Assembly (NCBI GenBank): GCA_001938485.1
Contig: MQRK01245561.1
Location: 17,610 to 74,642, forward strand
DNA length: 57,033 nt
Reading direction: 5' to 3'
Source of the DNA: Girardia tigrina
Lineage: Eukaryota
The position numbers and the translations under genes were made by a program. Shown here piece after piece: positions 5,150 to 57,033 of the stretch; position 1 is the first letter of the stretch, and each line of letters begins with the position of its first letter. The notes under the pieces were generated by a model, which was not told the origin of the DNA, made no database searches, and saw nothing but the letters and a program-made list of their open reading frames with translations.

Positions 5150-5830
5150 TTACCTTCATACAAGACAGTTAAAGTCTTCTATTTAATAAATTTTCTATAG
5201 CAATAAATGCTGACAATTCTTTATCTGTTACTTCAGCTTCTCCCAGAATTCTCATCATCACTTTCTTCAAAAATCCCCCAAAATGTGGTGTTACAGGGGA
5301 TTGAAAATCCACGTTATCTTTCCAGTATTTAACCACTTCTTGATAGAATTATTATCAATTTGAATGTTCATAATTTTCTTTCACGCTCCGAAAAAATTTG
5401 AACCATTGTCTGTTATTAATAATAATTTTAATTATATATATCGGCATTCCCATTCTTGCAATAAATCTCTCTTAAGTCATGACGAATGAATCGGTATCTA
5501 AACCACATGTCATTTGTAAGGGAGCCGCTTTGGTCTGGAGATAGGTGATAAGGCACATATCGTTTCTCTTTCACTAGTCGTCGACTTTGTTTTGTCAAAA
5601 ACAATCCAGTGTAATCAATTCCCTATTTTTTGAATGCGCATAATTCATTTTCTAATCTGAACTTAAAAATCGATGCCATCATTTGAGAGGATCATTTTCT
5701 TCGATAATTTTTACAAACATAACATTTTCTTTTGATTTTTGATTTTTCTTCTTCCTAGAATACAATACTCTTTATTCAGCTCTGATAGTAAATAACTATA
5801 GCTTCCAAAATGATCGATTTGTTTATGTTT
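5150..5830 (-). pseudogene. Bel/Pao LTR-retrotransposon integrase remnant
   Basis: Minus-strand degenerate peptides AFKK..GIDYTGLFL (~5600-5640) and PVTPHFGGF (~5270-5300) match Bel/Pao integrase motifs (PF...GxDYxGP; PPxAPHFGG). Confidence 0.6.
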
Positions 5831-5899
5831 TTGTTTGATTATTAACCTAGAATTAAGGCGTTCTCTTGATGAGACTCTTTCTCACTTAGGTGTCTTCTC

Positions 5900-27713: not shown

Positions 27714-30051
27714 TCAATAAATGCCTCTAACCAGGTTATCGAGATTATTATCCATTGAATAAGGGAAAGATTCGTCCCGACGTTTCCAATTGAGTGCGGT
27801 TATCTAAACATCGGGAATACGGGTCACTGCCATTTGAATAAGATAATTAAACAGACCACTCTCAAATTACGCAAATTGAATGGAATCTTGTCACAACTAT
27901 CCGTGTAGTCGGAACTGTCGCAACTGTCGGCGCAGTCTTTACCGTTCAGTGGAGAATTGGCAGCTCGCTCATCAAGTTTCTTCCAGGCACTATCTATTCT
28001 TGCGGTCTCTTCGTCGCGCTCGAGTAGCGGCAAATCAAGTGGCAGACAACGGTCATGCGTACCATCAGCGGCAATCATACTCCAAAGTTTGATATCGTGA
28101 TCGAGTCCAGCTGTTGCAAGAATCGGCATGGAAGGATGAGGCTCGAGCACATTAACAACACCGTTCTCATCTGCTCGGAACCAGTTGACAAGAGCCTCAG
28201 ATTCTCTCTCCCATAATAAAACGTGACCATCATTGCTGCCACTCACTACGAATTCATGTTTCGGTCCGTAAAACGCGACACCGGTCACAGTTTGGACATT
28301 TCTGTGACCCTGGTAGCGATGTATTGTGTGCGGTTCATCTGAAGTTTTGGAAGCCGTGCTGAGTAAATAGATATCGTCATCATTATATGAGGCAAGCAAT
28401 GAATTGCCATCATGACTATAGGCAACCGAAGTTATATGATAACTCGAGTGAGGCTTTCTTCTTAAGTTCTCAGGGCAAAGTTCTTGTAAACACGACTTAG
28501 TGTTTCGTCGGTCAAAAACAAACACACGGCTATCTTTACCAGCCAATGCAAATTCTTGACTGCGTACCGGACTACAAGATATTGAGTAGAGTGGCACCTT
28601 TTCCACAGAACAGATCTCAATTGGTCGTTCACGAGTTCTTACATCGGAGCCAAGTACTCGAGTATCTTCACCAGCGCTGATTACCAGACTTGACTGGTCA
28701 ATGGGTACGTCCATCTTATGACAACAGTCCTTGTGGCGGGCTAATAATCGACTATACTGCAATTGACCTGTAGATGATAGTGCTGCATATCGTACAGTTG
28801 CGTCCCGACTGCAGGAGACTAGTTCTAAATCATTACTACCCGGTAGAAAGCGAACTTGAAATACGTTACTCGTGTGACCCACAATAAATCTTGCTAATTG
28901 ACGCTTCTGTTGCCAGTCAGTAATTACTAGATGCTTGTCATCACTGCCGCTGGCAATCCATGAACCATTGCTACTAAAATCTAGAGCGTTTACACAACCT
29001 TCATGAGCATTAAATCGTGTTTCCAATCCAAGTCTTCTTACAGACCATCGACTACCATAAATTGCGTTTTTAATATCCCATACACCATTTCGTTGTACTC
29101 TTTCATTGCTCTTTACTTCTACTTTTTTTATCACAGGAAATTCTTTCTTTATCTCATCTTCATCTTCCTCTTTTCTTCGTTTTTCATCACTTAAATATTT
29201 GATCTTTTGTGTATTTTTGAATACAAGTTTTTCTCTTCGTTTTCTTCCAACGTTTTCAGTGTTATATTCCATATCATCATCCACATCCATTTTACATTGA
29301 TCAACCTCATTTTCATCCATTCTTTCATTTTCTTTTAAATCAATCTTTTGAATATTATCTTCAACTAATTCGTCTTTCAGTGTAACACTCTCATTTTCAC
29401 ATTCTACATATTCTTTTTTCTCAAAAGACCACATCGGAATAATCCGAGAAAATCTCCGACAACTTGCCCAATCTCCTCGCTCTCTTGCTGCTAATAAATA
29501 ATAAAGATTTCTTGCAATATTTTGGTCACTACTCGCTAAATTCTTACTGTTTCCTACTCCTAATACCTTTAAATCTTCATTAACTTTGTTTCTTAGTAAA
29601 CTATATTCATTCAACTGTTCCTCTGTTACATTAGTGGACTGGCGATTCTCTCTTAGTCTGAATCGTGGTTCGACATTGAAGAATGATCCTAAATAATCTA
29701 ATAATTCTCTTTGAAAGGAAATTTCAATTTCTCCGGGGTTTGTAGAAACATTATTTTCACGAGCTGGATTACTGATATCACTATCGTTTTCATTGTTCTC
29801 AATTTCGCTATAATAGATATCGTCCGAACCATTTTCACTAAAACTGTCATTAGAATCATCACTAATATCTGGTGGATAAGGTCTTGTCAACTGTTCCCCA
29901 TCCTGATTTTCTTGAGAATTTATTTTGTCTCCATCTTCTTTTGATAATGCACAATTTGTTACGGATATTGGATCATTACAACTTTTAAAAGATTCATCTT
30001 CATCAGAACTATCATCTTGGTTAGATTTTTTTATTGTATTAGCAGATGGGT
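27714..30051 (-). CDS. DCAF8: DDB1- and CUL4-associated factor 8 (WDR42A) homolog; proposed exons 30051-27857 and 27803-27714 plus unseen upstream exon(s)
   Basis: WD40 repeats HEGCVNAL..SGSDD, GHTSNVFQ, YQGHRNVQTVTGVAFYGPKHEFVVSGS and VNVLEPHP..LATAGLDHDIKLW are diagnostic of DCAF8. The frame is open upstream to acceptor TTTCAG (30052). A 53-nt GT..AG intron 27856-27804 gives C-terminal VITALNWKRRDE...GIY*. Confidence 0.85.
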
Positions 30052-30731
30052 CTGAAAGAGAAAAAAATAAATATATAGAAATTTAAATGAAATGAGTAAT
30101 TTTTTATTATTAATGAAAATAAATAAATTATATTCTACAAACCAAATAAAATTAAATTTAAAAAAAATCAGTAATATTGATAACGTAATAATATTGTCAG
30201 TAATATTGTCTTTACGCAATTTTCACGCAACCTTTATTTACTTATTTATGGATAAATAAATAAATCAATCAATCAAAAAGAAAAATTAAAAAGAAAATTA
30301 GAAATTTGTTTTTTCGACTAAATTGGTCCAGTCGATTTTATTTTGGAAATTATTAAAATACATTCTTTAAAAAATTAAAAATTCTTATGTTTAACATTTA
30401 ATTCGACTGACTGATGAAATTTAATCATATTAGAAACGAAAAAAAAAATGGAAAAAACGTACCATTAGAAAATATAACAAAATAATGATTTTCAATTAAC
30501 AATTGTTGTTCATTTCTAAATAAATTAAGTAATAATTATAATTAATAATTATTGGAATATTTAAACAAATGAAATATTTATTATAATTATAATAATAAAG
30601 TTTTGCACCGCACAAGCAAGGTCAGTGATTTTTGTCAAAAGGCAGATGAAGACAATGAAAATTATATAAATTATTAAAACAAAAAATAATCAAATAATAA
30701 TAAAAACAAAATAAATTACAACACAAATTAA

Positions 30732-33983: not shown

Positions 33984-35358
33984 TAGAGATGTCGTATTTG
34001 ATTTTTTGAAATCCGGTCGGAGCCGGATTTGGCAGGTTTTAAGAAAATAAAATCCAGCTCCGGCCGGAGCTGGAGCCCGATTTGTGACGAGTTTAAGTAA
34101 GTAGCTACTTATGCTAAATTAAAGTAATTTTTTAAGAATAGCTGGAAATTGTACCTATTAGAAAAATGAATTGCAAATAATAAATAACTACTAATAATTA
34201 TTTTAAATATTTTATTAAAATTTGAACATAGAAACATATAAATACAAAACTATATGAAAAAAATAGTTTTTTAATTTCTTATTAAATCAATATTGTACTT
34301 CAAAAAATTAGTCTTGAAGCAGTTTCTGCAAGGGGTCTTTGAAAGTATTATTAGAAACCTAAAAATATATTGTAAAAATAGAGAAACACAAATAGAGAAA
34401 CATGTGATCTCTGATTACTTCACCTGCCACACTAAATAATCGTTCAGGTGGTATACTAGTCGGATGTGATCCCAGGTACACTCGAGCTACTTTAGCTAAA
34501 CTATGAAATCTCTCTTTATTATATTTCCACCATTTCAGTGGATCTTCTGACCGTGAGACCACGGGTTCAGACAGTTACTGGCATAATTCTGACTCGATAA
34601 ATGCAGATATGTGATGTTGCTCAGTGGGTGTTGACTGGACGATCTCATGAACACAGTCTCAAAGTATAGAGCTATCCATGATTTCTTAGCTGCTGGTTTA
34701 AGAGACTGCTGTTAGAGGAGGAAATCAACGTAGAACTTGTTGAATGAACATTCTAATAGTATTAAAAGATAGCAGTACACTGGCATTTACAACCGTCATA
34801 TTGGACAAAATGCAATTTACGATTTTGAAATTCAATTGTTATTCTTTGAAATATAATATGGTTTATTGAAAAAAAATTAATGGATGTACTTGAATTGTTT
34901 ATTTACGTTTATTAACGTTGACTAAATTTAGGAAATATATAGTCGGTTAACTCGAATCGTGTGGAGCGGAAAAAAACATTAGAGATATCCGAGTTTGCAG
35001 ATAATGTGATATATTTTCTTTTACTTTTTTGGTGACAAAATTACCTTCGGGATAGCCGAATATTCGAGATAACCGAGTTTGACTGTATGTAGATATACCT
35101 TATGACTCAAAAGATTGAAATAAAATTTAGAGAAAATTAAAAATCCCAATGAATTTGAGAAAAAAATTGAAAAATTTCTAAAATTGATTTTATTTTTTTC
35201 ATTTTTTTCTAAGTTTTGTTTTTTTTCGCTTTTTTGTACATTTGTATACCCTTACAAAATCCGGTACAAAACCGGCCAAATTATGGCTAGAGTCGGATTT
35301 GTAAAAAGGGTTAAAACCGGCTTCGGTCGGATTTGAACCGGATTCCGGCACATCCCTA
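33984..35358 (-). mobile_element. Internally deleted hAT (ZBED4/Ac-like) element
   Basis: TIR TAGAGATG/CATCCCTA. Perfect 8-bp TSD GTTAAAAT (33976-33983, 35359-35366). CCGG(A) subterminal repeats. ORF 34359-34562 is the hATC dimerisation domain (DPLKWWK..LAKVARVYL..PTSIPPERLFS). Confidence 0.92.
34940..35085. mobile_element. pogo/Tigger-type MITE nested in the hAT element
   Basis: Right end TTCGAGATAACCGAGTTTGACTG-TA; eroded left end TAGTCGGTTAACTCGAA. Confidence 0.6.
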
Positions 35359-35502: not shown

Positions 35503-36778
35503 TATTTGGTTGGCCAAAAAGTCATTGTGTTTTTGAGTACGTCCTAATAAAAAACTTGAAAATATAAAACGATGTGATAAAATTTAAATTCAATTATATA
35601 TTCTGAAACATCAATTTTCAGACTATGTTTATACAAAATATTAATTGATTTTGTTTTAATTTATTACTTTACGTCAATTCGAAATGGAAAATCAAAATGA
35701 GCATATTCGCCATGCTTTGTTACATTATTTTCGCAAAGGGAAAACCGCTGTACAAGCTCATAAGAAGATATGTTTTGTATATGGTAGTGACTCCTTAAAA
35801 CTTTGACAGTGTCGATATTGGTTTTCTAAATTTCGTTCTGAAAAATTTCATCTGAAAGATGCACCACGCTCCGGCCGACCAGATGAAGTTGATGGCGACA
35901 AAATAACAGCACTGATCAAATCTAATCCACATATGACGACAAGAGAAGTGGCAGAGACTCTGGAAATAACAAAATCAAGTGTTGGAAGTCATTTAAGGAT
36001 ACTTGGATTCGTCAGTAAACTCGATATGTGGTTACCACATGAACTGAAAGAAATTCATTTGGTGAAACGTATAGACATTTGCGATTCCCTTTTGAAGCGA
36101 GAACAAAGTGATCCATTTTTGAAGCGCTTGATTACGGGTGATGAAAAATGGATTGTTTACAACAATGTGGAACGCCGACGATCATGGACAAAACGTGGTG
36201 AGCCTGCCAAAACGATCCCAAAAGCATAAATTTACCAAAAGAAGGTTATGCTTTCCGTCTGGTGGGATTTTAAAAGGAATTGTGTTTTTTGAATTCCTTC
36301 CGAGGAATGAAACGATCAATTCAGACAGATATTGTGATCAGCTAGAGAAATTGGCTCATTCAATTCAACAGGAACGTCCTAAATTGGCAAATCGAAAAGG
36401 AGTTGTGATTCAGCATGATAACGCAAGACCGCGTACAAGTTTGACCACTCGCCAGAAACTCTTATCACTGGGTTGGGAGGTTTTGCCGCACCCACCGTAT
36501 TCTCCAGACTTGGCGCCATCGAATTTTCAAATATTTAGATCACTGCAGAATTCCTTAAACAGAAAAACATTCGCCAGTGATGATGACATCAAATCGCTTT
36601 TTTGCTGACAAAGGCAATGGTTTTTATGAATCAGGAATAATGAAGCTACCGGAAAGGTAGAAGAAAGTGATTGAAAATAATGGAGAATATATTGTGTAAA
36701 AATATTTGTGCATCCATGTCATTTTTTGATAATAAATATTTTAGTAAAAAACGCAATGACTTTTTGGTCAACACAATA
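35503..36778 (+). mobile_element. Full-length mariner (DD34D, mellifera-subfamily-like), transposase pseudogenised
   Basis: ~30-bp TIRs TATTTGGTTGGCCAAAAAGTCATTG.. / ..CAATGACTTTTTGGTCAACACAATA. ORF from ATG 35684 (MENQNEHIRHALLHYFRKGK) with WLPHEL, ITGDEKW, HDNARP and YSPDLAPS motifs; stops and frameshifts present. Confidence 0.95.
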
Positions 36779-37431
36779 TTTTATTATATATTGTAGTAAG
36801 GTAGATAGGTGTTTAATTCTGTTTTCAAGACTTTTGGAGAAACAGACAACTTTATCTGAGAACGATACAATCTCATCAAGTTTAAATGTTCATAAACATG
36901 TGATTTTTTAAAAGTTCCTTTATTACCATTGTTTTTAAATCTTTTTTACTAATAAGTTCTGCTACTACTTCTCCCTTTTTTCTACTTATTTACAGATATC
37001 TCCATTCAGAAATCTAACAAAATGTCTCTGCGGCATTTTTAATAGGGAACAAGTGTATTAATCTTAAAATCAAAATTTAGTTTAAAATATTTTAAAAATT
37101 TTATAATTATTATCTATTATTTAAATTATCATTATTATTCCACCAATAAATTCTCTCGGTCTCCAACTCGATCATCTCTATTTCCAGCAATTTATCAAAA
37201 ATATTTCTAAACTTTAATTAAAATTCGAAAAAAAATTATATCGATTATTTCGACTGGAAATAGAAACAAATCGCAGAATAAAATCTCTCAAATTGCTGAC
37301 TAAAACTGGTCAGAAATCAAGAATAGTACTTTTTAGCTGCGTCCATATCATTCTCGATATATAAAGTAAAAATTCATATTTATTAGCACAAATTAATATT
37401 TTGTAATGTATATAAATTCAAACAAATATTA

Positions 37432-38449
37432 CACCAGTTCCCAATTAGAAATGCTTTGTAAGCATTTACAAATGTCATTATCTGTATGATTTAATGAATT
37501 TCATGTCGTTTGGGTTATCAATGTTAATTTTTGGTTAATTAATTAATAACTATTTTTATTAATTTGTGATTATTTATGAATTAATTTGAGATTATTTATT
37601 AATTAATTTGTGATTATTTATGAATTAATTTGTGATTATTTATGAATTAATTTGTGATTATTTATTAATTAATTTATGATTATTTATGAATAAATTTGTG
37701 AATATTTATGAATTAATTTGTGATTAATTATGAATTAATTTGTGATTATTTATGAATTAATTTGTGATTATTTATGAATTAATTTGTGATTATTTATTAA
37801 TTAATTTGTGATTATTTATGAATTAATTTGTGATTATTTATTAATTAATTTGTGATTATTTATGAATTAATTTGTGATTATTTATGAATTAATTTGTGAT
37901 TATTTTTTAATTAATTTGTGAATATTTATTAATTAATTTGTGATTAATTATGGATTAATTTGAGATTATTTATGAAATAATTTGTGATTATTTTTTAATT
38001 AATTTGCGAATATTTATGAATTAATTTGTGATTATTTATTAATTAATTTGTGATTATTTATGAATTAATTTGTGATTATTTATGAATTAATTTGTGATTA
38101 TTTATGAATTAATTTGTGATTATTTTTTAATTAATTTGTGAATATTTATTAATTAATTTGTGATTATTTATGAATTAATTTGTGATTATTTATGAATTAA
38201 TTTGTGATTATTTAATTAATTAATTTGTGATTATTAATATATAAGATTAATTATTAATTTATTTATTTTGTCTCAAGTATGAACTGAACTTGTATCTTGT
38301 AAGTATGTGATGAGGTGTGTTTGAATTTATTCGCCCCTTCCATAAAGTCTGTCATATTTCATTGCGTGTGATCCTTCAGAATGACTCTGAGATCCACCGT
38401 CATTAATCTAATCAAATGCATATGTGGCATTTCTAATTGGGAAAGAGTG
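37432..38449. mobile_element. Tc1/mariner-type non-autonomous element carrying a minisatellite
   Basis: TA|CACCAGTTCCCAATTAGAAATGC ... GCATTTCTAATTGGGAAAGAGTG|TA. Confidence 0.8.
37557..38235. repeat. 22-bp minisatellite, ~30 copies
   Basis: Unit GAATTAATTTGTGATTATTTAT with variants (TAAT.., ..GAATATT..). Confidence 0.95.
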
Positions 38450-40327
38450 TATTAATCTTGAAATCAAAATATAATTTAAAATATTTTATAATTATGTTTA
38501 AAACCATACAATTGTTATCTATTAATTACATTATAAAATTAATAATTTAATTAAATTATTAATTAATAAATTGTCATTATTAATCTCCACTCTCAAACCA
38601 TTCAATCAATCGATTCCCTCGGTCTCCAACTCGACCGTCTCTATTTCCATCAATTTATCATAAATATTTCTAATAATTTCATTAAAATTCGAAATAAATT
38701 TATATCGATTATTTAGATAGGAAATAAACAAATCACTGAATAAAATCTCTTAAAACGCTCAATAAAACCGGTCAGAAAATCTATAAAATACAAATTCAAT
38801 CACCTAATGAACTATCGATATTGTTGTTATCGGACAATTCTTTATCCATCTGTAATGAGACACAATTCAGACAAATGTTAATAATCGTATATTATCGATC
38901 AATACTCTAGTTTTATTAGCTTTACATCAATCAATTATCAACAAATAATTAGCATTACTACAAAGATTTCAATTGAACTATTTTGTAGAAATAATCTTGA
39001 TATAAATTTGGTAATTATTAAAACAACGCATTTTTGTTGGTTGAAAATTTGAAAATGCGATAAACTTTCGATTAATTGTTGTTTTTTTTAATTAAATGGT
39101 ATTTTTTATGTTGTTTATGACTGTTGTTTGTTATTGTTTTTTTGTGAATTGTAAAATAACTTTATTAAATTAGTAATATGTTATATGTTTGTATACTAAT
39201 TTTTTGTCGTTTGAAAAATATGTATTTTCAAGTCTTTAAATATCAACCATCTATGATATCAATTAATTATAAATAAAAACATTTTAATGAATTATACCAT
39301 CATCAATTTCAATGTAGAGTAATAATTTTATGATACTTGTGTCAATTTTATTTAAAATTATTCATTTAATCAATCTAATTTTTAACAGTGAGAAAAAAAT
39401 TCTAAAATGGTGTTACTATCCAGCAAAAGTCCGTAAAATTTCAACATAAAAACGACCATTAAATTAATTTTTATACCAATATCATATTTTGCTTTTTAAA
39501 GGTTTAAAATGTCATTTTTGCAGTTTCAATTAGATAGATTTCAATTTGAAGTAAAATATAATCCATCGCCTTGTAGTGGTTAATTATAAAAACTCAGTGT
39601 TTTAATAAAAATATTAGCAAAGATGATTTTTTTTCTTAAATTTTCTTTATTTATTTAGAAAGAGTTGCATAATTATGTAATTTTTAATAACAGAGGGTAT
39701 AATACATCTCATTTTTTGGAAGATTATATTTAAAAAGCATTATATATTTGCACTGGAGTCGATTAAATCGTCTAGGTAGACCTTTGTTTCTTATTTATAG
39801 AATAACAATTATAACGAGGAAATCAGAAAGTATTTGATTTCGTTCACTCAAAATATCAAAAGGCCAGATGAACATAACTTAAAACGGTATGAAACATTCA
39901 CCAACACCAGGAAAAGATTTCAGAAATGGTTCATATTAAAATAGTATACTGGAGATTAACAAACGGAAAGTGATTGTATCAATAAATAAGTATTAAAAAG
40001 ATAAATAATATAAAATAAAATTACATAAAAACCCAAATTTCCTATGTTGAGTTCGTGTTTCATTTTTTAGAACTAGTAACTCTAGCCACTTTTACTACTT
40101 TGGTTTATTTATCAACATTCTGAACTTAAAACTAACCCCACTGTCATCAGCTAGCCGCGAATGATGATGAAAGCGCTCCGGTTTCCGGACTTACACAAGC
40201 TTAAAGTCAGGTAAGCTAACTCATGGGTATTAGTTTTATTAATTTTTCTTACCATATCTATTTAATAAACAGGTTCTTTTTTAATGATTGTACTGATTTA
40301 TTTTAAAAGACAATTTTATATGAGAAC

Positions 40328-43942: not shown

Positions 43943-46655
43943 GGAACAATACCAAACTCATTATTTGTTATTGAATTTTGAATCGTTCAATTCAGCTTTT
44001 CAATTTTTGTATATTTTTTTGGAAACCTAGGTCTTGCCGTGCTAGTCTGAAGAGACCCATTTTGTGGCTTTACTCTACGATTCAATGCATTCTTACCTTT
44101 TCCGCAATTTTCAATGGTCGTTCTCTGTATAATCATCCACCTTTTCGGGGTGGATTACAATTTATTTATTAATAAATTAAATTATTTTAAATAAATAATT
44201 GAGAAATCGGTGTTAAAAAATTTATTATTTTAAATAACATCAATTAGTCTTCGTCACTATCTTCATTCATTACATTAACTTTTTCGTTTATAAACAGCCT
44301 ACGCAATATTTTATGTAAAACCTGTGAATATCTTCAATTGTTCCTCTGATAATGAGTGGTCATTTATTTTATTAATTAAAGATGAATCACTACCAACAGC
44401 CGAGTAATTTATCTTAATTTTCTAACTATTTTATGAATATGTATATTTGCAATTGAAAAATTATTTTTTATATATTTCAGTTAGATAATATTCAAAATAC
44501 TTGTTTAAATATTTAGATTTAATTAGAGTTTTTGAACACGATATTTTAAAAAATAATTAGTTTTTATTTTTTTAAATATTTTCCACTACTTCAAAAAGAT
44601 TGAAAAATTCCTGAGTGTAAAGGAGTAAAAAAGACATTTTCTAAAAAAATTGGCGGTGGACACTTTTCAAAAACTTGGTCAAAAAATGATTTTAATTTTA
44701 TTTTATTTTTTAAAAATCGACTTTCCACCTGAGATTTATAGTAATATTTTTTAAAAATGTCTTTTACTCCTAAGAATTAGGAAAAAATCGTTATTGATTT
44801 ATTTTGAATTTTACTATTAAAAAAATCGAAAAACGGTTTTCTTTAAAATACTCGAAAACCTTTTGAGATAATTAGCTGAAAATTTGGCTGAATTATCTTT
44901 ATTAAATATGAAAGCCATTCCCCAAGTACAAGTCAAAAACCCATGGGGCAGATTTCACGTTTAAACCCGACTATACCATTTGAAAATATTAAATCATCAT
45001 TGTCTTCGGATAATCAACGACCCCGATACACGGCACGGCATTATGCGGACAGATTGACCAGGCGGTCCGAAAAAACATCTCTCTCCATTTGGAGATGAAG
45101 CCTTCAGCGAACAGGTCGACTTGAATTTTATTTCTGTAAATCCTTTATATTATTCAAGAAACTACATAAGCAACAGCCAGAATAACTGAATCACCCACTA
45201 AAATGTGAGTATGTGAGCCATTTACATGTATTTAATAAATTCCTTCTTCAAAGCAAGGAGACGATTGAGACTTATTGTATTTTAACGTTCTTTTGGAGTT
45301 TCTGTAATAATCATATATTATCCTAGTAAATTCTGAATTTCGTGAGAAAACATAATCATGCTACTGTCGGTCCAGTACTTATCTATTATCTCAATGGACA
45401 CACTAATTACCATTTTGCTGACAATGCGTCATATATGTAAATATATTTCAGGGATGTTTTGCTTTGCCTCTTTCCTAGTGCCATTCACATAATCTGATAA
45501 ACACACATTGTGTCTGTGACAGTTGATGAGTTTCGTTTGACTATGCTTAAATGTGATGCCTTGGTAATGCTACGAAAGTTGTTCTTTTCAAAGCTTCTGT
45601 TCATCGAACTAGCTATTCAAAAGCCTATAGAAAATGAATGCTAAGCAAGTTTCCAGTGTCCAATGCAATTATTACTGTTATAGAACTCATGGCCTTCAGC
45701 CACTGAGTACTGTGGCCTCACATTTGTTTCTGAATTCAAACTTTGTGAAGCAGAAAATACAACAGCAAGAGAGCACTAATAAGCTTTGACATCTCCCAGA
45801 AACAGTACAAAGAGAAACTTTGGCAGATCTGAGCTATAAGTGATTTTTCTCATAGATCGATACCAGCTTATTATGTACACTTGACATAATTTGAGGTGAA
45901 GTCCTTTCATGGTAAGAACTTTTTTAAAATTACCTGTCTTTATGTAGGAAGCTCACGAGAAGTCTCTCATAGATACCTGTCGCACAGCAATCAGTATTGT
46001 AGCGATCCAATTGTCTGAATATATTGAAGGTCATAAGTGGCCAAAAAAATTCATATCGCTTATTTTCTTTATTCATCCATAGTTATTGTTAGTCTTAGAT
46101 TCTTTAAACCTTGATCTTTTGTATATAGTTGGAAATTTAAATGAGGAGACATAGTCAATTTAAAAGACACCATTCATATGTCTTTATATGAAAAGAATAC
46201 TAAATATTTCGAAGGAGAAGCACAACTCCAGACATAAATTAGAAATTTTTGCTTCAGGAAAAAATATTATTATCATATTTGCAAAAATATTATTATCATA
46301 TTGGCAAAATTATTATTTGAATAATGTTTAAATTATAAAAATAATTAATTGAATATTTTTATCAATCACAATATTAACTTTTCATCGTTTGTATCATATT
46401 CTAGTTGTTAATTAATATTTAATGAAAAATTAAAAGATAAATATTCTCTCAAGTATTAAAAAAATAAATTCATCGAAAAACAATTTGATCAAAATTTCAA
46501 ATCAACATCCAAAACATTTTGTTTTAATAATTCAACAGTAATTTTTTTTTCCAATCTCAATTCAAATTTTATTGTCCTCACATACCGACACACAAAAAAC
46601 AGAAAACCGATATTTATATTATTCTTTACAATCTCTCTCTCTCAATATATCATCA

Positions 46656-47393
46656 ATGCGTCGAAATGTCGGAATCGCAGCTATCAAAAACAAAGAAGCC
46701 GCAGTGGCCAAATACAAATCCAAAGGCACAGAAATCGCCGAAACGAATTTCCAACAACTCGTCAAACAATTCGACTCGTTCAAATCACATCTCGAAGAAT
46801 TCGCCGTGAAACACAAAGACCGAATCAGAAAACAACCGGAATTCCGGTCGCAATTCCAATCGATGTGCGCGACAATCGGAGTCGACCCGATCGCCTCGAG
46901 CAAGGGATTCTGGGCCGAGATGCTCGGGGTCGGTGACTTCTACTACCACCTGGCCATCCGGGTGATCGAGGCGACCATGGCGCGCGCCGACCGCAACGGG
47001 GGCCTCGTGGACCTTGAGGAGCTGGTGGCCGTGCTCAACGACACCAGGAGCAGCAGGGACACCGAGCGCGTCTCCAAAGACGACGTGGCGCGCGCCGTGC
47101 GGGCCGTGAGGGCGCTGGGCAGCGGGTTCGCGATCGTGGCGCTGTCCCAGGGCCGCCAGATGGTGCGCTCGGTGCCCGGGGAGCTCAATATCGACCAGAC
47201 CAGCGTGTTGAAGCTCGCACAAGACAGAAACGGACAGGTGGCAGTGGGCGCGTGCGCCACGGAGCTCGCATGGAGCGAGGAGCGGTGTCGAGACGCGGTG
47301 GAGTGTCTGGTGAAGGAGGGCATCGCGTGGGTCGACGGGAGCGGCAGCGACTGCACTTTCTGGATCCCGGGACTGTTCTCTGTTAGTAAATGA
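46656..47393 (+). CDS. SNF8: ESCRT-II subunit SNF8/Vps22/EAP30, intronless
   Basis: MRRNVGIAAI...LEEFAVKHK..IRKQPEFRSQFQSMCATIGVDPIASSKGFWAEMLGVGDFYY...SVPGELN.D...GIAWVD..FWIPGL. ATG 46656 matches the conserved MRR N-terminus. Confidence 0.97.
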   Translation: MRRNVGIAAIKNKEAAVAKYKSKGTEIAETNFQQLVKQFDSFKSHLEEFAVKHKDRIRKQPEFRSQFQSMCATIGVDPIASSKGFWAEMLGVGDFYYHLAIRVIEATMARADRNGGLVDLEELVAVLNDTRSSRDTERVSKDDVARAVRAVRALGSGFAIVALSQGRQMVRSVPGELNIDQTSVLKLAQDRNGQVAVGACATELAWSEERCRDAVECLVKEGIAWVDGSGSDCTFWIPGLFSVSK

Positions 47394-48835: not shown

Positions 48836-49952
48836 AATCAGCCTATAAACAATCTGAAAATGTCTGAAAGTCGCAAAAAATTTCAATACATATTTGTGGT
48901 GCAAATCTAAATTGCAGAAAATTCAAATGGGGACCCAATCCGCTTTGTAGGTGGAATGTCAATGTTTTGTTTCTGAGAAAATATTTTTAAATAATACAAA
49001 ATTATATAAAAATATTATTTTATTCTAAATTTTGGAATTATTTTTATAATAATTATGAGGGGTTAATTTAAATTTGCATCTCGCCAAAATAATTTATTAT
49101 TTTTTTAATTCAAAATTAAAAATGATATCATAAAGTAACTATTAAAAAATAAAAATAAAATATTACTTATTTAAAAATAAAATGTGTTTTTCAAATATTT
49201 TAAAAATTAAAAATGATATTATAATAAAAGAAAGTTATAAAAAAAATAAATACGTTTTTAAAAACAAAAAAATATATTTTTTAATGTATCCTTTAAATAT
49301 CTTAAAATTAAAAATGATAAGAAATCCATTAAATATTAAATATTATAAATAAAAATATTTTTTCAGTCATAACAATTTATATATTTTAATAGAAGTTATA
49401 AAACAATTTTAAATAAATTTAAAAATAAATTTTTAGTTTTAATGTGAAAATTATTTAATAAATTTGCAAGAATTTAAAAATTGAATCGAAAGAATTTAAT
49501 TGATTAATTTGTGGCGAGATAATTAAATTAACTGAAAAATTTGTTTAAATATGTGAATTGTTGTTATATTAATAAATTTTGGTGTTAAATTATGAGTGTG
49601 AAAGTGGCATAAATGCTACTTACAATAATATTGGAAAACATTTTCTTATTTTTTTTATTTTCTTAATGTTCAATAAATTAAAAAATAAAACTTATAAAAG
49701 AATAGCAAAAAAAATTGAATAAACATTAAAAATATTTTCCAATATTATTATAAAAATAATTCCAAAAATTAGAATATTTTATATGATTTTTTAATATTTA
49801 AAAAAATATTTTCTTAGAAGCAAAACATTGACGTTCCCTCTACAAAATGGATTGGGTCCATTTGAATTATCTGTAATTTAGATATTCACCCCAAATATGC
49901 ATTGAAATTTTTGCGACCCCCAGAATTTTTCACCTGATTTATAGGTTGTTCA
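48836..49952. mobile_element. Long-TIR (foldback-like) non-autonomous DNA element
   Basis: ~210-bp inverted arms 48836-49053 and 49742-49952. A further direct copy of the left-end region lies at 48023-48137 (vs 48731-48873). Confidence 0.75.
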
Positions 49953-50399: not shown

Positions 50400-52228
50400 T
50401 ACAGATAATGATAAATTTAAAAAAATATATAATAATTTTGATACGTGAATCCTGAACATTACCCTTGATTTGGGTGCTGCAGGTCAAAATCAAGTCGGCA
50501 TGAGTATGGCCTGTATTAGACTACAGCTTAATAAACGAACATATTCATTGGTATCTGAGTGGAAGTTATGTTAGTAGTCAGTCACAACTGAGAGATTAGA
50601 AAAAATTAGGTTACAACTGCGTTGTGATGAATTTAAAGAAAGCATATTTGCAAGTTAAAGTAAGTTACAGATCTGTTTGAGACAGTCATGTAAAATGACC
50701 AAGGTTATGTGATGACAAAGTTGGGTTTCGGGCTGTCCATTGCACTGAAATTCATGTCTAAGATAGTCGAAACATAATCAATAATAACGATTTTTGCATA
50801 GGAATATATTGATTTCGTGTTTGTTGTAGAAAGGTATTGTAATCGATAAAATGTAGCAAAAATCTTTCAGCGGTTTTATTTTGAGTACAAAACGAAAGAA
50901 AGAATTGGCTTAGATAAAGATGTAAGAATGATTTTACTAAATATGGAAAGGGATTTGCAGTGGAAAAAAGATGAAGAGCTTGTCACTAGAGATCTGGATA
51001 AAGTAACTAGATAAGAAGTACAAGGAATCTTGGGGAAGTAGATAAGTCATGTACCAATTGCGGTATGGTTCGAGTTGCTGGGATAAAGCAGGGCCTAAAG
51101 AGACATTACAGATCGATAAAATTAGTCAGAGGTTGAGGATTGATGGGGATTCTACAACAGGCAATTTGTAATGAATTGTAATCATAATGTGATTATTTGG
51201 ATAAATGTAAGTTGTATAGCAATAGGTATGCTTCTCTGTGTTAAGAGTGACATTATTGAAGGCACTGCATGGAAAAAAGAGGGTGATTTAAACAACATGA
51301 ATATAAGGGAACTGGATGCAACCATTAGGAACCTAAATTTGGCAATCATGAGGCTTTCATAATTTCAAGCTGATGATGGACTCTGCAACAGCATATGGAT
51401 GGTTCATGTTAGTATTCAAGAACACACATAACTAAAAATCCGCTCCTTATCTGAACATCTAGTACGACGAAGACTTGATATCATCAGAGAATTAAAGGAC
51501 CAGGAAATAATGGAAGTGCTACAGGAATTAGTGAAATCTCAGTCTAATTTATTAGATATTAGGACCAGGGTTAAGAAACATAGGCTGAAGAAAAAAGTGT
51601 TAGTTAATGCCATGGAAGAAAATCTCAATCCAAGCCTTGAAGAAATCAAGGAAATACATATTATCTGTCACTTTGGTGTAAACAGAATCTATGAACTACT
51701 AAAATAGAAATATGGGTGTAAGTGTTATTGTTAATTTTTTAATTTTCGAAAATAAGAATTTTGGTTCTTTTTAAATTTCTAATCATAATCAGAATTAAAA
51801 AAAATATATTGAAAAATAAAATTAAAAAAAGACAAATAAAAAATGAAAATTTGTTTAAATACTAAATTGAACATCTTGAATTTTGAATAAATTTTGAAAG
51901 TATTGATTTCTTTTTTTTAATTAAAAATGGAAGTAAATTTATAACCTAACAATCGGGTTAGAACATTCAATTTGGATCAAGTTAAGAAAACCATAAATCA
52001 ATGTGATGCGTGTTCATAGATCTGAGCAGCTCCAAGAAAAAAATTATTAGCTAACAAAGTGTGGTACCAGCTCTATAGCGACTTGACTTATTTCCACGAT
52101 GTTGCATATTTGAAGATAGTTGACTCGCCAAAATTGTTTTGCATTTGGAAAAAGTTGCCTAAGGAATCAACTAAGGAAATTATTTGGCATAAAGATAATG
52201 TATTTTCAGAATTTGGGCTTTATAAACG
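50400..52228 (+). pseudogene. Old Ty3/gypsy-like pol remnant (RT, RNase H, integrase), truncated by the LTR at 52229
   Basis: WINVSCIAIG..IIEGTAW..NIRELDATIRNLNLA (RNase H), EIHIICHFGVNR (integrase HHCC) and WYQLYSDLTYF...VFSEFG (rve start). Confidence 0.7.
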
Positions 52229-53036
52229 TGTTGGGATATCGGTGTTTTATTACAAAATAGAAAATAGAAGAATAAGGTTATTTAATATTTCAAAGTTTAT
52301 TTCAATAATCACACTTTACAAGCTTTACAATTATTTTAGAAATGGTAACTTAAACCTTATGTTGGGAATTTATAATTTGCGATAATGCTGAGAAGAGAAT
52401 TCTCTTTCCCAGATTATTTTAAAGAAATATATAAAGGATATATTATTTAAGTATATAATTATATATTGACCGTACTTCAAATTTGGCGATTCTGATTCTC
52501 GATAATGAACTTTGACTTGACGTAATTTACACTTCACAGTTTTTCTCTCTCTAATTCACTTTTCGTTTCGCTCGCTTTTATATAACTGACTTAAAATAAA
52601 TTAACTCTGCGGGCGGTTAATTTATTCGGCTCTCAAATTCTTTACTTTCGAAATGACCTTTTCTTTTTAAGGTCAATTAATTAATTTTCGATAGTGATCC
52701 TTTTCTTTTCTTTTAAATATAAATAAGTTTCTCTGTTTTTTCTCATCCTCCAATTCAAATTTTCTTTGACTTTTTATACCCTTTTCTTTAATATATAATT
52801 GTCTTTATTTATTTTTTTTAAATATAGTGTTTTCTTTTTATGATAAACATTGTACTATTTAATCTATTTTGTTTCTTCTTTTATTAAATTTTAATTCCAT
52901 TATTTATATATAATTTATATTTTTTTAATATAATAAAAGTAAATATTTCTATTTAACTTTGGGTTAATTTAAACAAAGGTTTTATAAAATGTTTTTATTG
53001 AATAATAAAATTAAATACCATATACCATACTCAACA
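52229..53036 (-). mobile_element. LTR-like sequence (probable 3' LTR of a minus-strand element); right boundary uncertain
   Basis: TGTTGGGATA ... ATACTCAACA inverted termini. On the minus strand there is a TATATAAAA box (52576-52584), AATAAA signals (52296-52301, 52246-52251) and a ...CCCAACA end. It interrupts the integrase remnant exactly at 52229. No clean PPT identified. Confidence 0.55.
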
Positions 53037-53715
53037 TTCATGGGGGGTAATAAAATTTATGCCCCCATAAATGATAAAATAAATCAAAATATACATGTGA
53101 AAGAAATGAGCATATTACAAGATATAGACAGAATGGAATAAATAACATACAAAGATAATATAAGCAAGCACATAATAAATCAATTAATGTCTAATCGTCC
53201 TCTGTCAAATCAATTGATAGTTCGTCGAAAGGATCGATATAGCAAATCGGTTCTTGTTTGATGATAATCTGGGAATCGTTGATCATTCTTTCCGCAGGAG
53301 GCGTGAACCACGGTAGATCCGTGTTCCGCGGGGTTCGACAATATGGCTCATCAATATCCACCTTTTGGAGAGGAGGTGGGGTGGCATGAGGACCACCTTT
53401 CTGTTGACGATGCCAACGATTGTATCGCACGACGTCCTCATCACATCTGAAGTTATCGTTTCCCTTGATAATAGGTATCGATTGATCATTGATGTGCGGT
53501 GGAGTAGCGAGACGCTGTTGGGAGCAAATAACACTTTCAGAAGGCGGAATTAGGGTGAAAGAAGAAGACTGAATATGACATGGTGAAACAATTTTTGCGA
53601 TCTTCTCTGGGTGATGCCCTAGAACACCGTGAGACCAACGTTTTGTTTTAATTGTAGTAGTCTCTTCATATGGGGTCTCAATAACTTTCGGAGTTAGCCT
53701 CTCAAAAACGGCTAC

Positions 53716-54990
53716 TCATGATCCTGATAAAACTTTAAGCTGGTCAGGGGGAGGCGGCGGAGGCATTTCCTCCTCTAATGTAGGTACATACAGTGGATGT
53801 ATGCTCGAATCAAAGGGCGGTAACTCGTATTCGAAATCGCCCAAGGGTGTGAAAAGATCTAAATTGTCCTCCTGCGTTTCAAGGTCTTCCCTAGCCGAAT
53901 GAAAGGAAGTTATATAGGATGCGTCAGAGAGGGCTTTTGCCATCCTCCAATAATTGGTATCCAACCACTCTTCCGCTGTAGATGAGGGTGGACCATTTGT
54001 TTGCGGGGGGGGGGAGTTCTCAAACATCTGTGCAGCAGAAGTAGGAGACAACGTGTCTATCCACCTACTCTCAACCTTCCTGTAAATTCTTAGTAAGGCC
54101 TGCGTATCTTCCCATGATGTATGTAAGCGTGCCTGGATTCGTTCATTTAGGACATCCCACGCTAAGTACTTGAGTCGGTAAAAATTACCGTTGTTACACT
54201 TCTTTAAACCCATGTGCTCAAAAACCTTCGCGGTTGCGGTGTCGCGAATACCTAGTAGCGTGTGCGTTGGGATAGCTAACCCCCTGATTTCCATTTGGAG
54301 GTCATGGCCGACAAGAATATTCCCATATAAGTTCTTATGCAGTTCTGCAATGACTTCATATTCATCTGCACGGCCTATGAGGTCCTTATCCTTTAATCCA
54401 TGACACCCCGTGCACCAGTCTGAAATCCTGGTGCGCGCCCTTACACGGGTGTTCATTAACACTCTACCATTATAATTTAAAAGCGTGATTGCCGCCACGT
54501 GAAATTTATTATTCTCATCCTTGACGAATTCGGCGTCCAAAAATCTTAACCGGGATTGAATTTCTTTTAAAGGCAAGTCTTTCCTTATAAAAGATGCTCT
54601 CTGAGCTACCATTTTTTCGCTAACCTTGAAATCAGAATTAATCTGAAGGTGTGAAAGTCGGCAAAACGGGTTGGGAACGTCGTCCTGCAACAAAAATTCG
54701 ATGGCGAAAACAGCGATTGTGCTGGGCGATGATACGTAAATATCGTTTATCTGTTCTGCTACCTCATCATCCCAATTGTCCGCAATATCGATCGCAATGG
54801 AATGCTTTTTTGGGACATTGATGGAAACTTTTGTATCGCTTATGATAAGAGGTGCCGATACCGCGTGGATGCATAAAGTTACAAGCTTGTAATGGGGGCT
54901 ATTAAAACTAGTGGGAATACTATGACGGTACACACCCATTACGTCCGAAACCCTCCAACGTCGAATAACAGTGGTTTTTACTACTACCAT
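53716..54990 (-). CDS. REXO4/ISG20-like DEDDh 3'-5' exonuclease-domain protein, probably retroelement-borne and decaying
   Basis: 424-aa intronless ORF. Exo I FLDAEF, ITLLNYNGRVL, ISDWCTGCHGL, Exo II ILVGHDLQME, IRDTA, LKYLAWDVLNERIQ and Exo III HTSWEDTQA, followed by a Pro/acidic tail. Confidence 0.8.
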   Translation of the reverse strand: MVVVKTTVIRRWRVSDVMGVYRHSIPTSFNSPHYKLVTLCIHAVSAPLIISDTKVSINVPKKHSIAIDIADNWDDEVAEQINDIYVSSPSTIAVFAIEFLLQDDVPNPFCRLSHLQINSDFKVSEKMVAQRASFIRKDLPLKEIQSRLRFLDAEFVKDENNKFHVAAITLLNYNGRVLMNTRVRARTRISDWCTGCHGLKDKDLIGRADEYEVIAELHKNLYGNILVGHDLQMEIRGLAIPTHTLLGIRDTATAKVFEHMGLKKCNNGNFYRLKYLAWDVLNERIQARLHTSWEDTQALLRIYRKVESRWIDTLSPTSAAQMFENSPPPQTNGPPSSTAEEWLDTNYWRMAKALSDASYITSFHSAREDLETQEDNLDLFTPLGDFEYELPPFDSSIHPLYVPTLEEEMPPPPPPDQLKVLSGS

Positions 54991-56017
54991 CTTTTTATTC
55001 AGATCGTTGTATATATGAGGCGGTTTTGATAATAGTTCGCGGCTGGATATTCTATCACATATAATTCCTCTAAAATTTTGACCAAGCCGGACTGAACGTC
55101 GCGGTAAAATGTATTTCCGTAGTGCATGGGACGGATTGACAACCCAAACAATTTCGTAGTATTGTCCGAAATCGGTTCATTTGGTGTCCAACTGGACGGA
55201 AGGGGTATCTCTATTGGGCAAATGGACTGCTTTTGAAAGACTTGGATGAGCCTATTGTAGTGCCCTACTTATGTCGTGAGTATTTTTATGCACGAACGTA
55301 TTTTTTTATTTGTCTTTGTGGCATGCGATTTTTGTTATTTTTTATGTTTTTTTTTATTTTTGTGAGAAATTTCATTCCTCAGTGGTATGCCGGTTTGTAA
55401 ATTCGGGTTCATCCGACCACAAAATTTCTAATTCAGGTGTAGAGGTAAAAAAATCCTATTCCTGATATGAAAGAAGTTGCTAAATATTTTACCGTTCTAC
55501 TCATGTGGACAATTTTTATATTTGCTCTCTGGTTTATTTTAAGTGTTATTAACATCCGTATCAAGGTTAATGCTCGCTATAGGGTTGAAGAGAGAAAAAT
55601 GTTATTTTTAACATTTTCTCCCTCGAAAGCTAGTCCTGCAAATATTAAATGTTGCATTTTATTTATTTGATTATTGTTGTAATATAATAATATTTCATCA
55701 TTTTCCTTTAACGGATTTGGCCATATTCTTTTAATTTTATTAATTATTTTATTCACTTTAACACAAGGGTGTACCTTATGTATTTTCAAAATTTCCGTCA
55801 TTTGAGGATTTTTATCATTTGTTACTATGGATAGTTCTAGAGGTTTCTGAAAATTCTTATTTGCAATAATGTATTTCCCATATTTTTCTTATCGTTTGAG
55901 GTTTGAAATCATCTCACTGACGAAAGTTCAAAATTTTGCAATAAAAATTTGAATATGTTTAATAATATAAAACAATTACTGAAATCAAAAACTATATTAG
56001 TCTATTAAAACTATGGT

Positions 56018-56371
56018 CATCTCGCCGAAATAATTTATTATTTTTTTTAATTTAAAAGGTAAAATATTTTAATGTTAATATGCTTATTAAATAATCTAAA
56101 ATTAAAAACGATAAGAAAACCATTAAATATTTATTTATAAATAAAAATATTTTTACAGTCATAACAATTTATATATTTTAATAGAAGTTATAAAACAATT
56201 TTAAATAAATTTTTAGTTTTAATGTGAAAAGTATTTAATAAATTTGCAAGATTATAAAAATTGAATCGAAAAGAATTTAATAGATTAATTTGTGGCGGGA
56301 TAATTAAATTAACAGAAAAATTTGTTTAAATATGTGAATTGTTGTTATATTAATAAATTTTGGTGTTAAAA
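56018..56371 (+). repeat. Dispersed repeat, second copy of 49078-49590
   Basis: CATCTCGCC.AAATAATTTATTA ... TTTGTGGCG.GATAATTAAATT ... TTTTGGTGTTAAA is shared. Internal IR ATCTCGCC/GGCGAGAT. Confidence 0.85.
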
Positions 56372-56863
56372 AATGAATTATGATATTGATGTTGCAACCA
56401 CTTCACACAAGTCTATTTAATCACACAGAAAAACTAAAATTTGCTATTACATTTTTACCTTAGGTCGGGTACTTATTGAATAGTTTATGTAATAAAAAAT
56501 ATTATTATTTAAAAACTTAAGAATTTGTATAATGATTTGAAAAGGAATATTATTATATTATTACGGATATGTTTTACTCGTTACCGTTATTATTTCACAA
56601 AAATGTTTATGAATTTACATTCATACATTCTCTAATAAAAACAAAGTGCGAAAACAATTATTGTAACCGTGTAACTTTTATTTCAAGTAAAGATCAGTCA
56701 GAATCATGGTTCATACAAAAACCGATTTCAAAATGCCAGTTTAAAGTTTTTATTTAATAAATATAAAAGTAAAACTTGTAACATTAATTTTTTTATATGT
56801 AAAAGTTCCAAAATTCAACAAAATTAGATATTGATTGAAGTCTACAAAAATCGTAACAAAGTA

Positions 56864-57033
56864 CAGGGTGGCCCAATGGGTACGCAGCCTCTAATTTTTG
56901 CATATTTTAAATCTACTCGTCAAAACGAGTATTTTGATATATAACATGTGAGGTGTAAAAATTCCAGAACTTGACCTTTTTGCGCAATAAAGGTCAAATT
57001 TTGAAACTCAGAATTTTGTTATAAAAATGGATT
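56864..57033 (+). mobile_element. Left end of a Tc1/mariner-type MITE running off the window
   Basis: TA|CAGGGTGGCCCA terminus. Confidence 0.45.

What the first reader, a model, noticed from the sequence alone, without database searches (positions are those of the whole stretch)
52229..55900. Probable LTR retroelement carrying a captured REXO4/ISG20-like 3'-5' exonuclease in the env/ORF3 position
Seen: an intronless, GC-richer minus-strand ORF with all three DEDDh exonuclease motifs. Its coding-like continuation ends (~53191) about 155 bp before an LTR-like sequence of the same polarity, which cuts into an older gypsy integrase at 52229. A weak integrase-HHCC-like remnant (ILKIHKVHP) lies upstream at 55577-55801. 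The protein has a novel N-terminal ~140 aa and a Pro/acidic tail unlike cellular REXO4. Known: DEDD-family exonuclease cargo occurs in bdelloid rotifer LTR elements and Terminons (DEDDy type); ISG20 is an antiviral exoribonuclease; arenavirus NP and nidovirus ExoN use DEDDh-family domains for dsRNA removal or proofreading. Inference: a retrotransposon family with a REX4/ISG20-class nuclease that could trim element RNA/cDNA, counter piRNA/siRNA defence, limit copy number or proofread.
Basis: partly seen in the sequence, partly recalled or inferred. Interest (0 to 1): 0.85.

Follow-up and report, generated by a model that had tools for sequence, protein, structure and literature searches.

The report
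Broken two-domain RNA nuclease beside LTR
This is a broken copy of an unnamed gene family that joins an RNA-trimming enzyme to a disabled oxygenase-like domain; it probably travels as cargo of a jumping gene in an invertebrate genome, though that link is not proven here.

Summary
Intact relatives (761-772 aa, 65-73% identical) show that 53191-55256(-) is one gene, now 5'-truncated, frameshifted and stopped early; the 'continuation' is its C-terminus. It is not a REXO4 orthologue. It belongs to an unnamed family of 77 proteins (fragments included) that branches apart from 90 cellular-type REX4/ISG20-like hits. The family has an ISG20-class DEDDh domain, often DEED, fused to an N-terminal double-stranded beta-helix of 2OG-Fe(II)-oxygenase type (Z 10.8) that lacks the iron ligands. 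Ten of 49 members have lost catalytic residues. The LTR reading is plausible but unproven: an 808-bp TGTNR...YNACA segment with TATA and AATAAA boxes ends inside an older gypsy-like remnant. There is no second LTR, TSD, polypurine tract or pol, and the end match is not above chance. The 'integrase remnant' is unsupported and resembles a flavin amine-oxidase C-terminus. Best reading: the 3' remnant of an LTR retrotransposon carrying an accessory, probably anti-silencing, RNA nuclease. DEDDy cargo in rotifer LTR elements is published; nine paper searches did not find this architecture.

The parts
53191..55256 (-). Whole surviving gene: 5'-truncated pseudogene of a roughly 760-aa DSBH-DEDDh protein, in three pieces
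   Evidence: tblastn of P0165 and P0164 covers residue 84 onward, to 760 for P0165
55002..55256 (-). Upstream piece, in another frame (frameshift near 55002-55014); start of the beta-helix domain
   Evidence: 67% identity over 85 aa to P0165 residues 84-168
54680..55125 (-). Double-stranded beta-helix domain of 2OG-Fe(II)-oxygenase/cupin type without HxD...H iron ligands; conserved H, S/T and E instead (split by the frameshift in this copy)
   Evidence: AF2 models of intact relatives; VIA-align Z 10.8 to prolyl-4-hydroxylase 2jij; column counts; coordinates projected
54082..54540 (-). DEDDh 3'-5' exonuclease domain of ISG20/ISG20L2/REX4 class; D-E-E-H-D in this copy
   Evidence: Pfam RNase_T E 1.5e-8; PDB 7yw5, 1wlj; residue table
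53716..53718 (-). Premature in-frame stop
   Evidence: P0001, P0004, P0005, P0006, P0164 and P0165 continue across this point
53191..54081 (-).
   Evidence: 88% identity to P0004 after the stop; pLDDT under 50 for the tail of P0002, whose tail sequence differs
53037..53190 (-). T-rich spacer (50% T), ending in an imperfect G5/C6 hairpin (about 53031-53077) where a polypurine tract would be expected
   Evidence: z -1.7; 12 of 200 shuffles as stable; 35-40% purine
52229..53036 (-). LTR-like segment, 808 bp, TGTTG...CAACA; A-rich 5' half, TATATAA at 52584, AATAAA at 52301 and 52251; single copy in the window
   Evidence: TGTNR end pattern from PMC2836005
50850..52228 (+). Older, decayed gypsy-like pol remnant, interrupted by an AT-rich stretch at about 51705-51950; integrase-like text stops at 52228 and does not resume at 53037 or 55257
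   Evidence: Integrase_H2C2 E 0.1, below cut-off; translations; motif reading recalled
55577..55888 (-).
   Evidence: Atlas 0.94-0.96; no integrase match

Best explanation
52229-55256 is the 3' end of a decayed LTR retrotransposon (gypsy or BEL type) that inserted into an older gypsy-like copy and later lost everything upstream of 55256. The element carried a free-standing accessory gene next to its 3' LTR. SHOWN: the gene encodes an ISG20/REX4-class DEDDh domain behind an iron-less 2OG-oxygenase-type beta-helix and before a long low-complexity tail; it is a separate family; this copy is dead. INFERRED: the carrier is an LTR element. In intact copies the protein is a two-metal 3'-5' exoribonuclease, and the beta-helix, with its conserved H, S/T and E, helps choose the substrate. 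The most likely job is conflict with the host, by degrading or binding small silencing RNAs or RNAs that trigger silencing, rather than a core step of reverse transcription. I put the anti-silencing step at about 0.35 given an element; the confidence below is for the accessory gene of an LTR element.
For: Separate clade: 55 against 90 rows, FastTree support 99, stem 0.52; 27 against 34 rows, SH-aLRT 99, stem 0.68. The N-terminal domain is in 0 of 90 cellular-type hits. Eight near relatives (P0001, P0003-P0006, P0008, P0164, P0165) are 69-88% identical to the window frame and 58-89% to each other. Ten of 49 family rows have lost catalytic residues against 0 of 84 cellular rows. P0031 is joined to acetyl-CoA-carboxylase-like pieces (Biotin_carb_N), which suggests a copy embedded in nuclear DNA. 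No relative in bacterial and archaeal genomes beyond two weak 46-aa matches. The gene ends 154 nt before a TGTNR-ended 808-bp segment whose TATA and AATAAA boxes share its polarity and whose far end falls where the integrase-like text stops. The window is rich in decayed elements. Precedent: DEDDy ORF3, with DEDD changed to DEED, in bdelloid Juno/Vesta elements (PMC5408684). The nearest solved relatives act on RNA: ISG20L2, ISG20, SDN1, Pan2.
Against: No second LTR, TSD, gag or pol of this element in the window. No polypurine tract. End similarity is not above chance (748 of 5285 pairs). No fusion to pol among 1928 candidates of 1226-3500 aa (weak), nor an RT or integrase domain in 80 proteins scanned. 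Of 13 apparently full-length relatives with a contig length, 10 lie on contigs only 0.35-1.4 kb longer than the ORF, too short for a pol gene. That fits a subgenomic mRNA, but also a stand-alone gene or a virus segment. Host genes here are also intron-poor. No activity or expression data.
Confidence: 0.55

Rival explanations
1. The gene is cargo of another kind of mobile DNA (Polinton-like, Ginger or other DNA transposon, Penelope/Terminon-like), and 52229-53036 is that element's end or an unrelated insertion.
For: Three relatives lie on contigs of 16.2, 16.4 and 18.4 kb, the size of large elements. Ginger transposons share TGTNR ends (PMC2836005). Terminons share DEDDy ORFs with LTR elements. 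No PPT.
Against: The segment has TG...CA at both of its own ends plus promoter- and poly(A)-like boxes in gene polarity. No long inverted repeat partner in the window. No hammerhead or other Rfam family at a meaningful score in 52000-56200.
Confidence: 0.17
2. It is a gene of an unknown invertebrate virus, copied into the genome with the help of an LTR element (a chimeric endogenous viral element).
For: All family hits that list a source come from ENA, JGI, Logan or metaclust, none with an informative name, mostly on ORF-sized contigs. The 5' end is truncated and there is no PPT. RNA viruses carry DEDD nucleases and AlkB domains.
Against: No two-domain match among the 50 viral structure hits shown. 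P0031 looks like a nuclear gene model.
Confidence: 0.13
3. It is a fast-evolving host gene family derived from an ISG20L/REXO4 ancestor (antiviral or anti-transposon nuclease), and this pseudogene merely lies next to a solo LTR.
For: Host genes in the window are intron-poor, so lack of introns says nothing. ORF-sized contigs fit ordinary mRNAs. Fish PML-like DEDDh nucleases restrict retrotransposons (PMC10123124, abstract start only).
Against: No matching TSD on the two sides of the segment, and the interrupted integrase-like text does not resume at 53037, as it should for a solo LTR. None of the 19 family hits with a source column comes from NCBI or UniRef.
Confidence: 0.12
4. Mechanistic rival within the best reading: the nuclease proofreads reverse transcription or trims the element's own RNA or cDNA ends.
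For: The DEDD fold includes proofreading enzymes (DnaQ hits). Rodriguez et al. proposed 3'-end processing for the rotifer DEDDy ORFs. ISG20 also degrades ssDNA, less well than RNA (PMC9157404).
Against: The ORF stands alone, with no pol fusion seen. Ten of 49 members lack catalytic residues yet keep long ORFs, unexpected for an essential step. Closest solved relatives are RNases.
Confidence: 0.15

Closest known systems
DEDDy-type ORF3 of bdelloid rotifer Juno/Vesta LTR retrotransposons and Athena/Terminon elements (PMC5408684)
   Same: A DEDD-superfamily 3'-5' exonuclease as a free-standing ORF near the 3' end; DEDD changed to DEED (22 of 39 intact family rows here)
   Different: Here DEDDh of the ISG20/REX4 class, not RNase D/mut-7-like DEDDy; fused to a beta-helix domain; LTR linkage shown there, only inferred here
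ISG20, ISG20L2 and REXO4/Rex4 DEDDh exoribonucleases; plant SDN1
   Same: Best sequence and fold matches of the nuclease domain (profile E 1.6e-31, 3.3e-21 and 1.8e-17 for ISG20L2, ISG20 and SDN1; target TM-score 0.81-0.83)
   Different: Separate long-stemmed clade; an N-terminal domain found in 0 of 90 cellular-type hits; frequent ExoII D-to-E change; many dead members
AlkB/2-ODD ORF of Phalaenopsis orchid Ty3/gypsy elements (PMC9289625) and AlkB of plant RNA viruses
   Same: A 2OG-oxygenase-type fold carried by a mobile element
   Different: The orchid domain keeps its cofactor-binding residues and demethylates RNA; here the iron ligands are missing and the fold is fused to a nuclease
Vaccinia virus C16 N-terminal domains (PDB 8ag3)
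   Same: Structural match to the beta-helix domain (E 2.3e-4); recalled as an inactivated 2OG-oxygenase-like fold reused in host conflict
   Different: No nuclease partner, DNA virus; a shared fold shows no shared function
Arenavirus NP and nidovirus ExoN nucleases
   Same: DEDDh-family domain in a parasite genome, used for immune suppression or proofreading (passages)
   Different: Not among the rows shown for sequence or fold hits

Membership tests
DEDDh exonucleases | ExoI D-x-E, ExoII acid, ExoIII H-x4-D | tested here: met
   D, E, E, H, D in the window copy; 39 of 49 family rows keep all five, 17 DEDD and 22 DEED
DEDDh exonucleases | DnaQ-like fold | tested here: met
   Model of P0002, pLDDT mostly above 90 over residues 130-500; ISG20 TM 0.83, rmsd 2.9
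DEDDh exonucleases | Metal-dependent 3'-5' activity | not testable with these tools
   Needs an assay
Cellular REXO4/Rex4 orthologues | Groups inside the cellular REX4/ISG20L clade | tested here: not met
   Cellular rows are unnamed and were labelled by me from motifs; the alignment used a family-built HMM; trees are unrooted
Cellular REXO4/Rex4 orthologues | Single-copy, syntenic gene | not testable with these tools
   No source genome was available
LTR retrotransposon (gypsy or BEL) | Paired LTRs | tested here: inconclusive
   One candidate only; no second copy in 57 kb; the element is cut at 55256
LTR retrotransposon (gypsy or BEL) | TG...CA (TGTNR) ends | tested here: met
   TGTTG...CAACA, but not above chance alone
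LTR retrotransposon (gypsy or BEL) | Polypurine tract before the 3' LTR | tested here: not met
   35-40% purine in the 10-20 nt before 53036; a weak hairpin instead
LTR retrotransposon (gypsy or BEL) | gag-pol upstream of the extra ORF | tested here: inconclusive
   None in 55200-57033, but the gene itself is 5'-truncated, so its original neighbour is lost
LTR retrotransposon (gypsy or BEL) | 4-6 bp target-site duplication; many genomic copies | not testable with these tools
   Only one end present; no genome; contig collections closed
2OG-Fe(II) oxygenases (AlkB, prolyl hydroxylase) | Double-stranded beta-helix with N-terminal extension | tested here: met
   Z 10.8, rmsd 3.8, 162 aligned to 2jij; AlkB-family chains Z 8.3-9.1, cupins up to 8.8; identities 2-11%
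2OG-Fe(II) oxygenases (AlkB, prolyl hydroxylase) | HxD/E...H iron ligands and 2OG-binding Arg | tested here: not met
   No conserved HxD; the only conserved His (48 of 52) is on a later strand; His in at most 2 rows per column at the distal site; last strand has E/D (48 of 52), not R. Sites placed by strand order, not by superposition
Bdelloid DEDDy ORF3 | Tyr in ExoIII, RNase D/mut-7 affinity | tested here: not met
   His in ExoIII; RNase_T match, no DNA_pol_A_exo1 match for family rows
env (fusion glycoprotein) | Signal peptide, transmembrane helix, fusogen fold | tested here: not met
   No such Pfam or fold match; no transmembrane predictor was run

The most novel reading that the evidence does not exclude
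An old, widespread lineage of invertebrate LTR retrotransposons carries an anti-silencing enzyme in which a disabled 2OG-oxygenase fold has become a reader of RNA ends or modified bases, steering an ISG20-class exonuclease onto piRNA/siRNA guides; the dead members act as decoys that bind without cutting.
Probability: 0.2. Interest if true: 0.85.

Novelty: new variant of a known kind. Interest (0 to 1): 0.6.

Why it matters
Retroelements are known to carry extra enzymes (DEDDy nucleases and GDSL esterases in rotifers, an active AlkB in orchids), but no function has been shown for the nuclease cargo in the papers I saw. This family adds a second, independent nuclease class and a two-domain design. 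It also offers many naturally intact, compact members (P0018 349 aa, P0011 348 aa) plus natural dead ones as controls. That makes a long-open question directly testable: do animal retrotransposons encode enzymes that attack small-RNA defence? Even if the carrier is not an LTR element, an unnamed family of iron-less oxygenase-fold nucleases would remain.

Tried and rejected
Integrase identity of 55577-55888: no support in Pfam, PDB, NCBIfam, PHROGs or a plasmid tblastn. The amine-oxidase reading rests on the Atlas alone (scores 0.94-0.96, 132-153 shared features, the family on 19% of one cluster's members); Pfam did not match it either. A PARP-like lead for the N-terminal domain (Atlas 0.80) was dropped after the fold searches gave a beta-helix. 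Solo-LTR reading: flanks differ. Pol fusion: none. Genomic context of relatives: the prokaryotic collection gave two generic matches; names and accessions of cluster members could not be looked up; metagenome and viral contigs stayed unchecked. tRNA genes: none. Rfam: one chance-level hit. Sigma-70 scan: uninformative. A second copy of the LTR-like segment: only an AT-rich 52-nt match to 4436-4486, judged chance. My recollection that Ginger transposons carry 2OG oxygenases was not borne out by PMC2836005 (0 occurrences). The careful IQ-TREE run did not finish; the quick tree is reported. P0045 (Ig-repeat protein) was treated as a spurious hit. The host species was not identified.
Full report
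Setting. The window is AT-rich nuclear DNA of an animal-like host (inferred). It has intron-poor genes (SNF8/EAP30 in one frame at 46542-47393, a WD40 gene at 27824-30082, a MYND-finger gene at 1905-3392) and many decayed elements: piggyBac, mariner, hAT and a second gypsy-like RT remnant near 7160-7390. I did not identify the species.

The gene. The frame 53716-55176(-) matches Pfam RNase_T (E 1.5e-8) and, in the PDB, only ISG20L2 and ISG20. The first homologue search gave 9 hits among 3885 candidates, 8 of them family members. The profile search gave 17 hits among 4019 candidates, including the intact 761- and 772-aa relatives P0165 and P0164. These show that the window holds one gene from 55256 to 53191, broken by a frameshift near 55002-55014 and a stop at 53716-53718, and lacking about 83 N-terminal codons. 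The copy is a fairly young pseudogene: 88% identical to P0004 on both sides of the stop.

The family. phmmer over 1.84 billion representatives gave 1311 hits at E up to 0.001, of which the best 150 were listed. From I assigned 77 proteins, fragments included, to the family by motif, tree and HMM. In a FastTree of the nuclease domain (145 rows; 13 rows with under 120 of 166 columns dropped; P0158-P0168 not included), 55 rows fall on one side and 90 on the other, with support 99 and a stem of 0.52. Three of the 55 I had first labelled 'other'; one of them, P0078, carries the N-terminal domain. A quick IQ-TREE on 27 plus 34 rows gave SH-aLRT 99 and a stem of 0.68; the careful run did not finish. 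Caveats: the cellular rows are unnamed, the alignment came from a family-built HMM, and the trees are unrooted. Of 49 family rows with all five sites aligned, 39 keep them (22 DEED, 17 DEDD) and 10 have lost them; 84 of 84 cellular rows are intact DEDD. None of the 19 family hits that show a source has an informative name or comes from NCBI or UniRef.

The N-terminal domain. AlphaFold2 models of P0002 and P0008, each with 52 aligned rows, give a confident beta-rich domain. VIA-align against 48,161 chains ranks algal prolyl-4-hydroxylase first (Z 10.8, rmsd 3.8, 162 aligned). Other prolyl hydroxylases, Ofd2, ALKBH1, ALKBH6, ALKBH7 and ALKBH5 follow (Z 8.3-9.7), interleaved with cupins (up to 8.8). 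Foldseek agrees and adds vaccinia C16; the viral library gives oxygenases and plant-virus replicases, which I recall carry AlkB. The subfamily cannot be fixed at 2-11% identity. The iron-binding HxD...H set is absent. Instead Tyr (42 of 46), Pro-Asn (43 of 48, 38 of 47), His (48 of 52), Ser/Thr (50 of 52) and Glu/Asp (48 of 52) are conserved. By strand order the His, Ser/Thr and Glu lie on adjacent strands of the main sheet and could line the old cofactor pocket; this is inference, as I could not inspect coordinates. An HMM of this domain hits 0 of 90 cellular rows. Pfam has no model for it.

The LTR question. 52229-53036 begins TGTTG and ends CAACA, fitting the TGTNR pattern of most gypsy ends (PMC2836005, passages). 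It has an A-rich first half, TATATAA at 52584 and AATAAA at 52301 and 52251 in the gene's polarity. Its far end coincides with the point where a plus-strand integrase-like text stops, just before the recalled second catalytic Asp; tool support for that remnant is weak (E 0.1; none). The text does not resume at 53037 and the flanks differ, so gene and segment probably arrived together. Against this: such ends are common by chance (120 pairs; 748 of 5285), there is no polypurine tract, the hairpin in its place is weak (12 of 200 shuffles), and there is no second copy. Because the gene is cut at 55256, that frame need not be its original neighbour. So the env/ORF3 position is not demonstrated. 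No pol fusion was found. Ten of 13 apparently full-length relatives with a contig length lie on contigs just 0.35-1.4 kb longer than the ORF, and three on 16-18 kb contigs; I could not read any of them.

Mechanism. Shown: domain make-up, catalytic residues, separate clade, dead copy here. Inferred: an LTR carrier (0.55). ISG20 degrades single-stranded RNA in preference to DNA (PMC9157404, passages), and the next solved relatives are ISG20L2, SDN1 and Pan2, so an RNA substrate is likely. A free-standing ORF, extreme divergence, long variable tails and retention of catalytically dead members fit a host-conflict accessory better than proofreading. I therefore favour anti-silencing, with the beta-helix as a substrate-choosing module. 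Trimming of element ends is the main rival.

Literature. Nine searches found DEDDy ORF3 in rotifers (PMC5408684, passages; PMC6431247, passages; PMC5718144, passages; PMC6338049, part 1 of 4), an active AlkB in orchid gypsy elements (PMC9289625, passages) and DEDD domains in RNA viruses (10.1101/2024.09.25.615016 and 10.1101/2022.02.15.480533, passages). PMC13524379 has no occurrence of 'exonuclease' or 'nuclease' and PMC3118150 none of 'exonuclease'. None of the listings or passages described an ISG20/REX4-class nuclease in a retrotransposon or a beta-helix-DEDDh fusion. Repbase, Dfam, subscription journals and supplements were not seen, and could hold such an annotation.

Verdict. Observation partly confirmed, interpretation partly supported.

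Noticed in passing
window 55577-55888 (-): AT-rich frame ending like a flavin amine oxidase or protoporphyrinogen oxidase C-terminus (Atlas 0.94-0.96); possibly the last exon or a relic of a host gene
   Followed up: partly
window 5100-7450 (-): Second decayed LTR-retrotransposon pol remnant: RVT_1 E 2.6e-5 at 7160-7390, with RNase H- and integrase-like text read by eye and a small insertion near 6430-6600
   Followed up: partly
window 46542-47393 (+): SNF8/EAP30 gene in a single frame, GC rising to about 0.6 in an AT-rich genome; indicates an intron-poor host
   Followed up: no
window 27824-30082 (-) and 1905-3392 (-): Long uninterrupted frames of a DCAF8-like WD40 gene and a MYND-finger gene (family names beyond Pfam are recalled)
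   Followed up: no
window 37404-38400: Array of more than 30 copies of a 22-nt unit, between two copies of a repeat (36995-37237 and 38389-38700)
   Followed up: no
window 48876-49912 and 56018-56376: MITE-like element with inverted arms; an 88% identical piece lies upstream of the finding at 56064-56376
   Followed up: no
window 18132-19214, 35807-36608, 11231-13527, 34362-34574: piggyBac, mariner and hAT transposase remnants
   Followed up: no
P0054, P0160, P0161: Three 425-aa family members on contigs of 16.2, 16.4 and 18.4 kb; the best targets for learning which element carries the gene
   Followed up: no
P0028, P0038, P0040, P0048, P0066, P0127, P0137: Family members with long open frames but no catalytic residues, partly grouping together in the tree
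   Followed up: partly
P0012, P0014, P0022, P0028, P0053, P0064, P0066, P0158: A short beta-hairpin-like motif at the far C-terminus recurs in several distant members, seen by eye; not evident in the window's subfamily
   Followed up: no
window 53031-53077 (-): Imperfect G5/C6 hairpin abutting the start of the LTR-like segment, in place of a polypurine tract
   Followed up: partly
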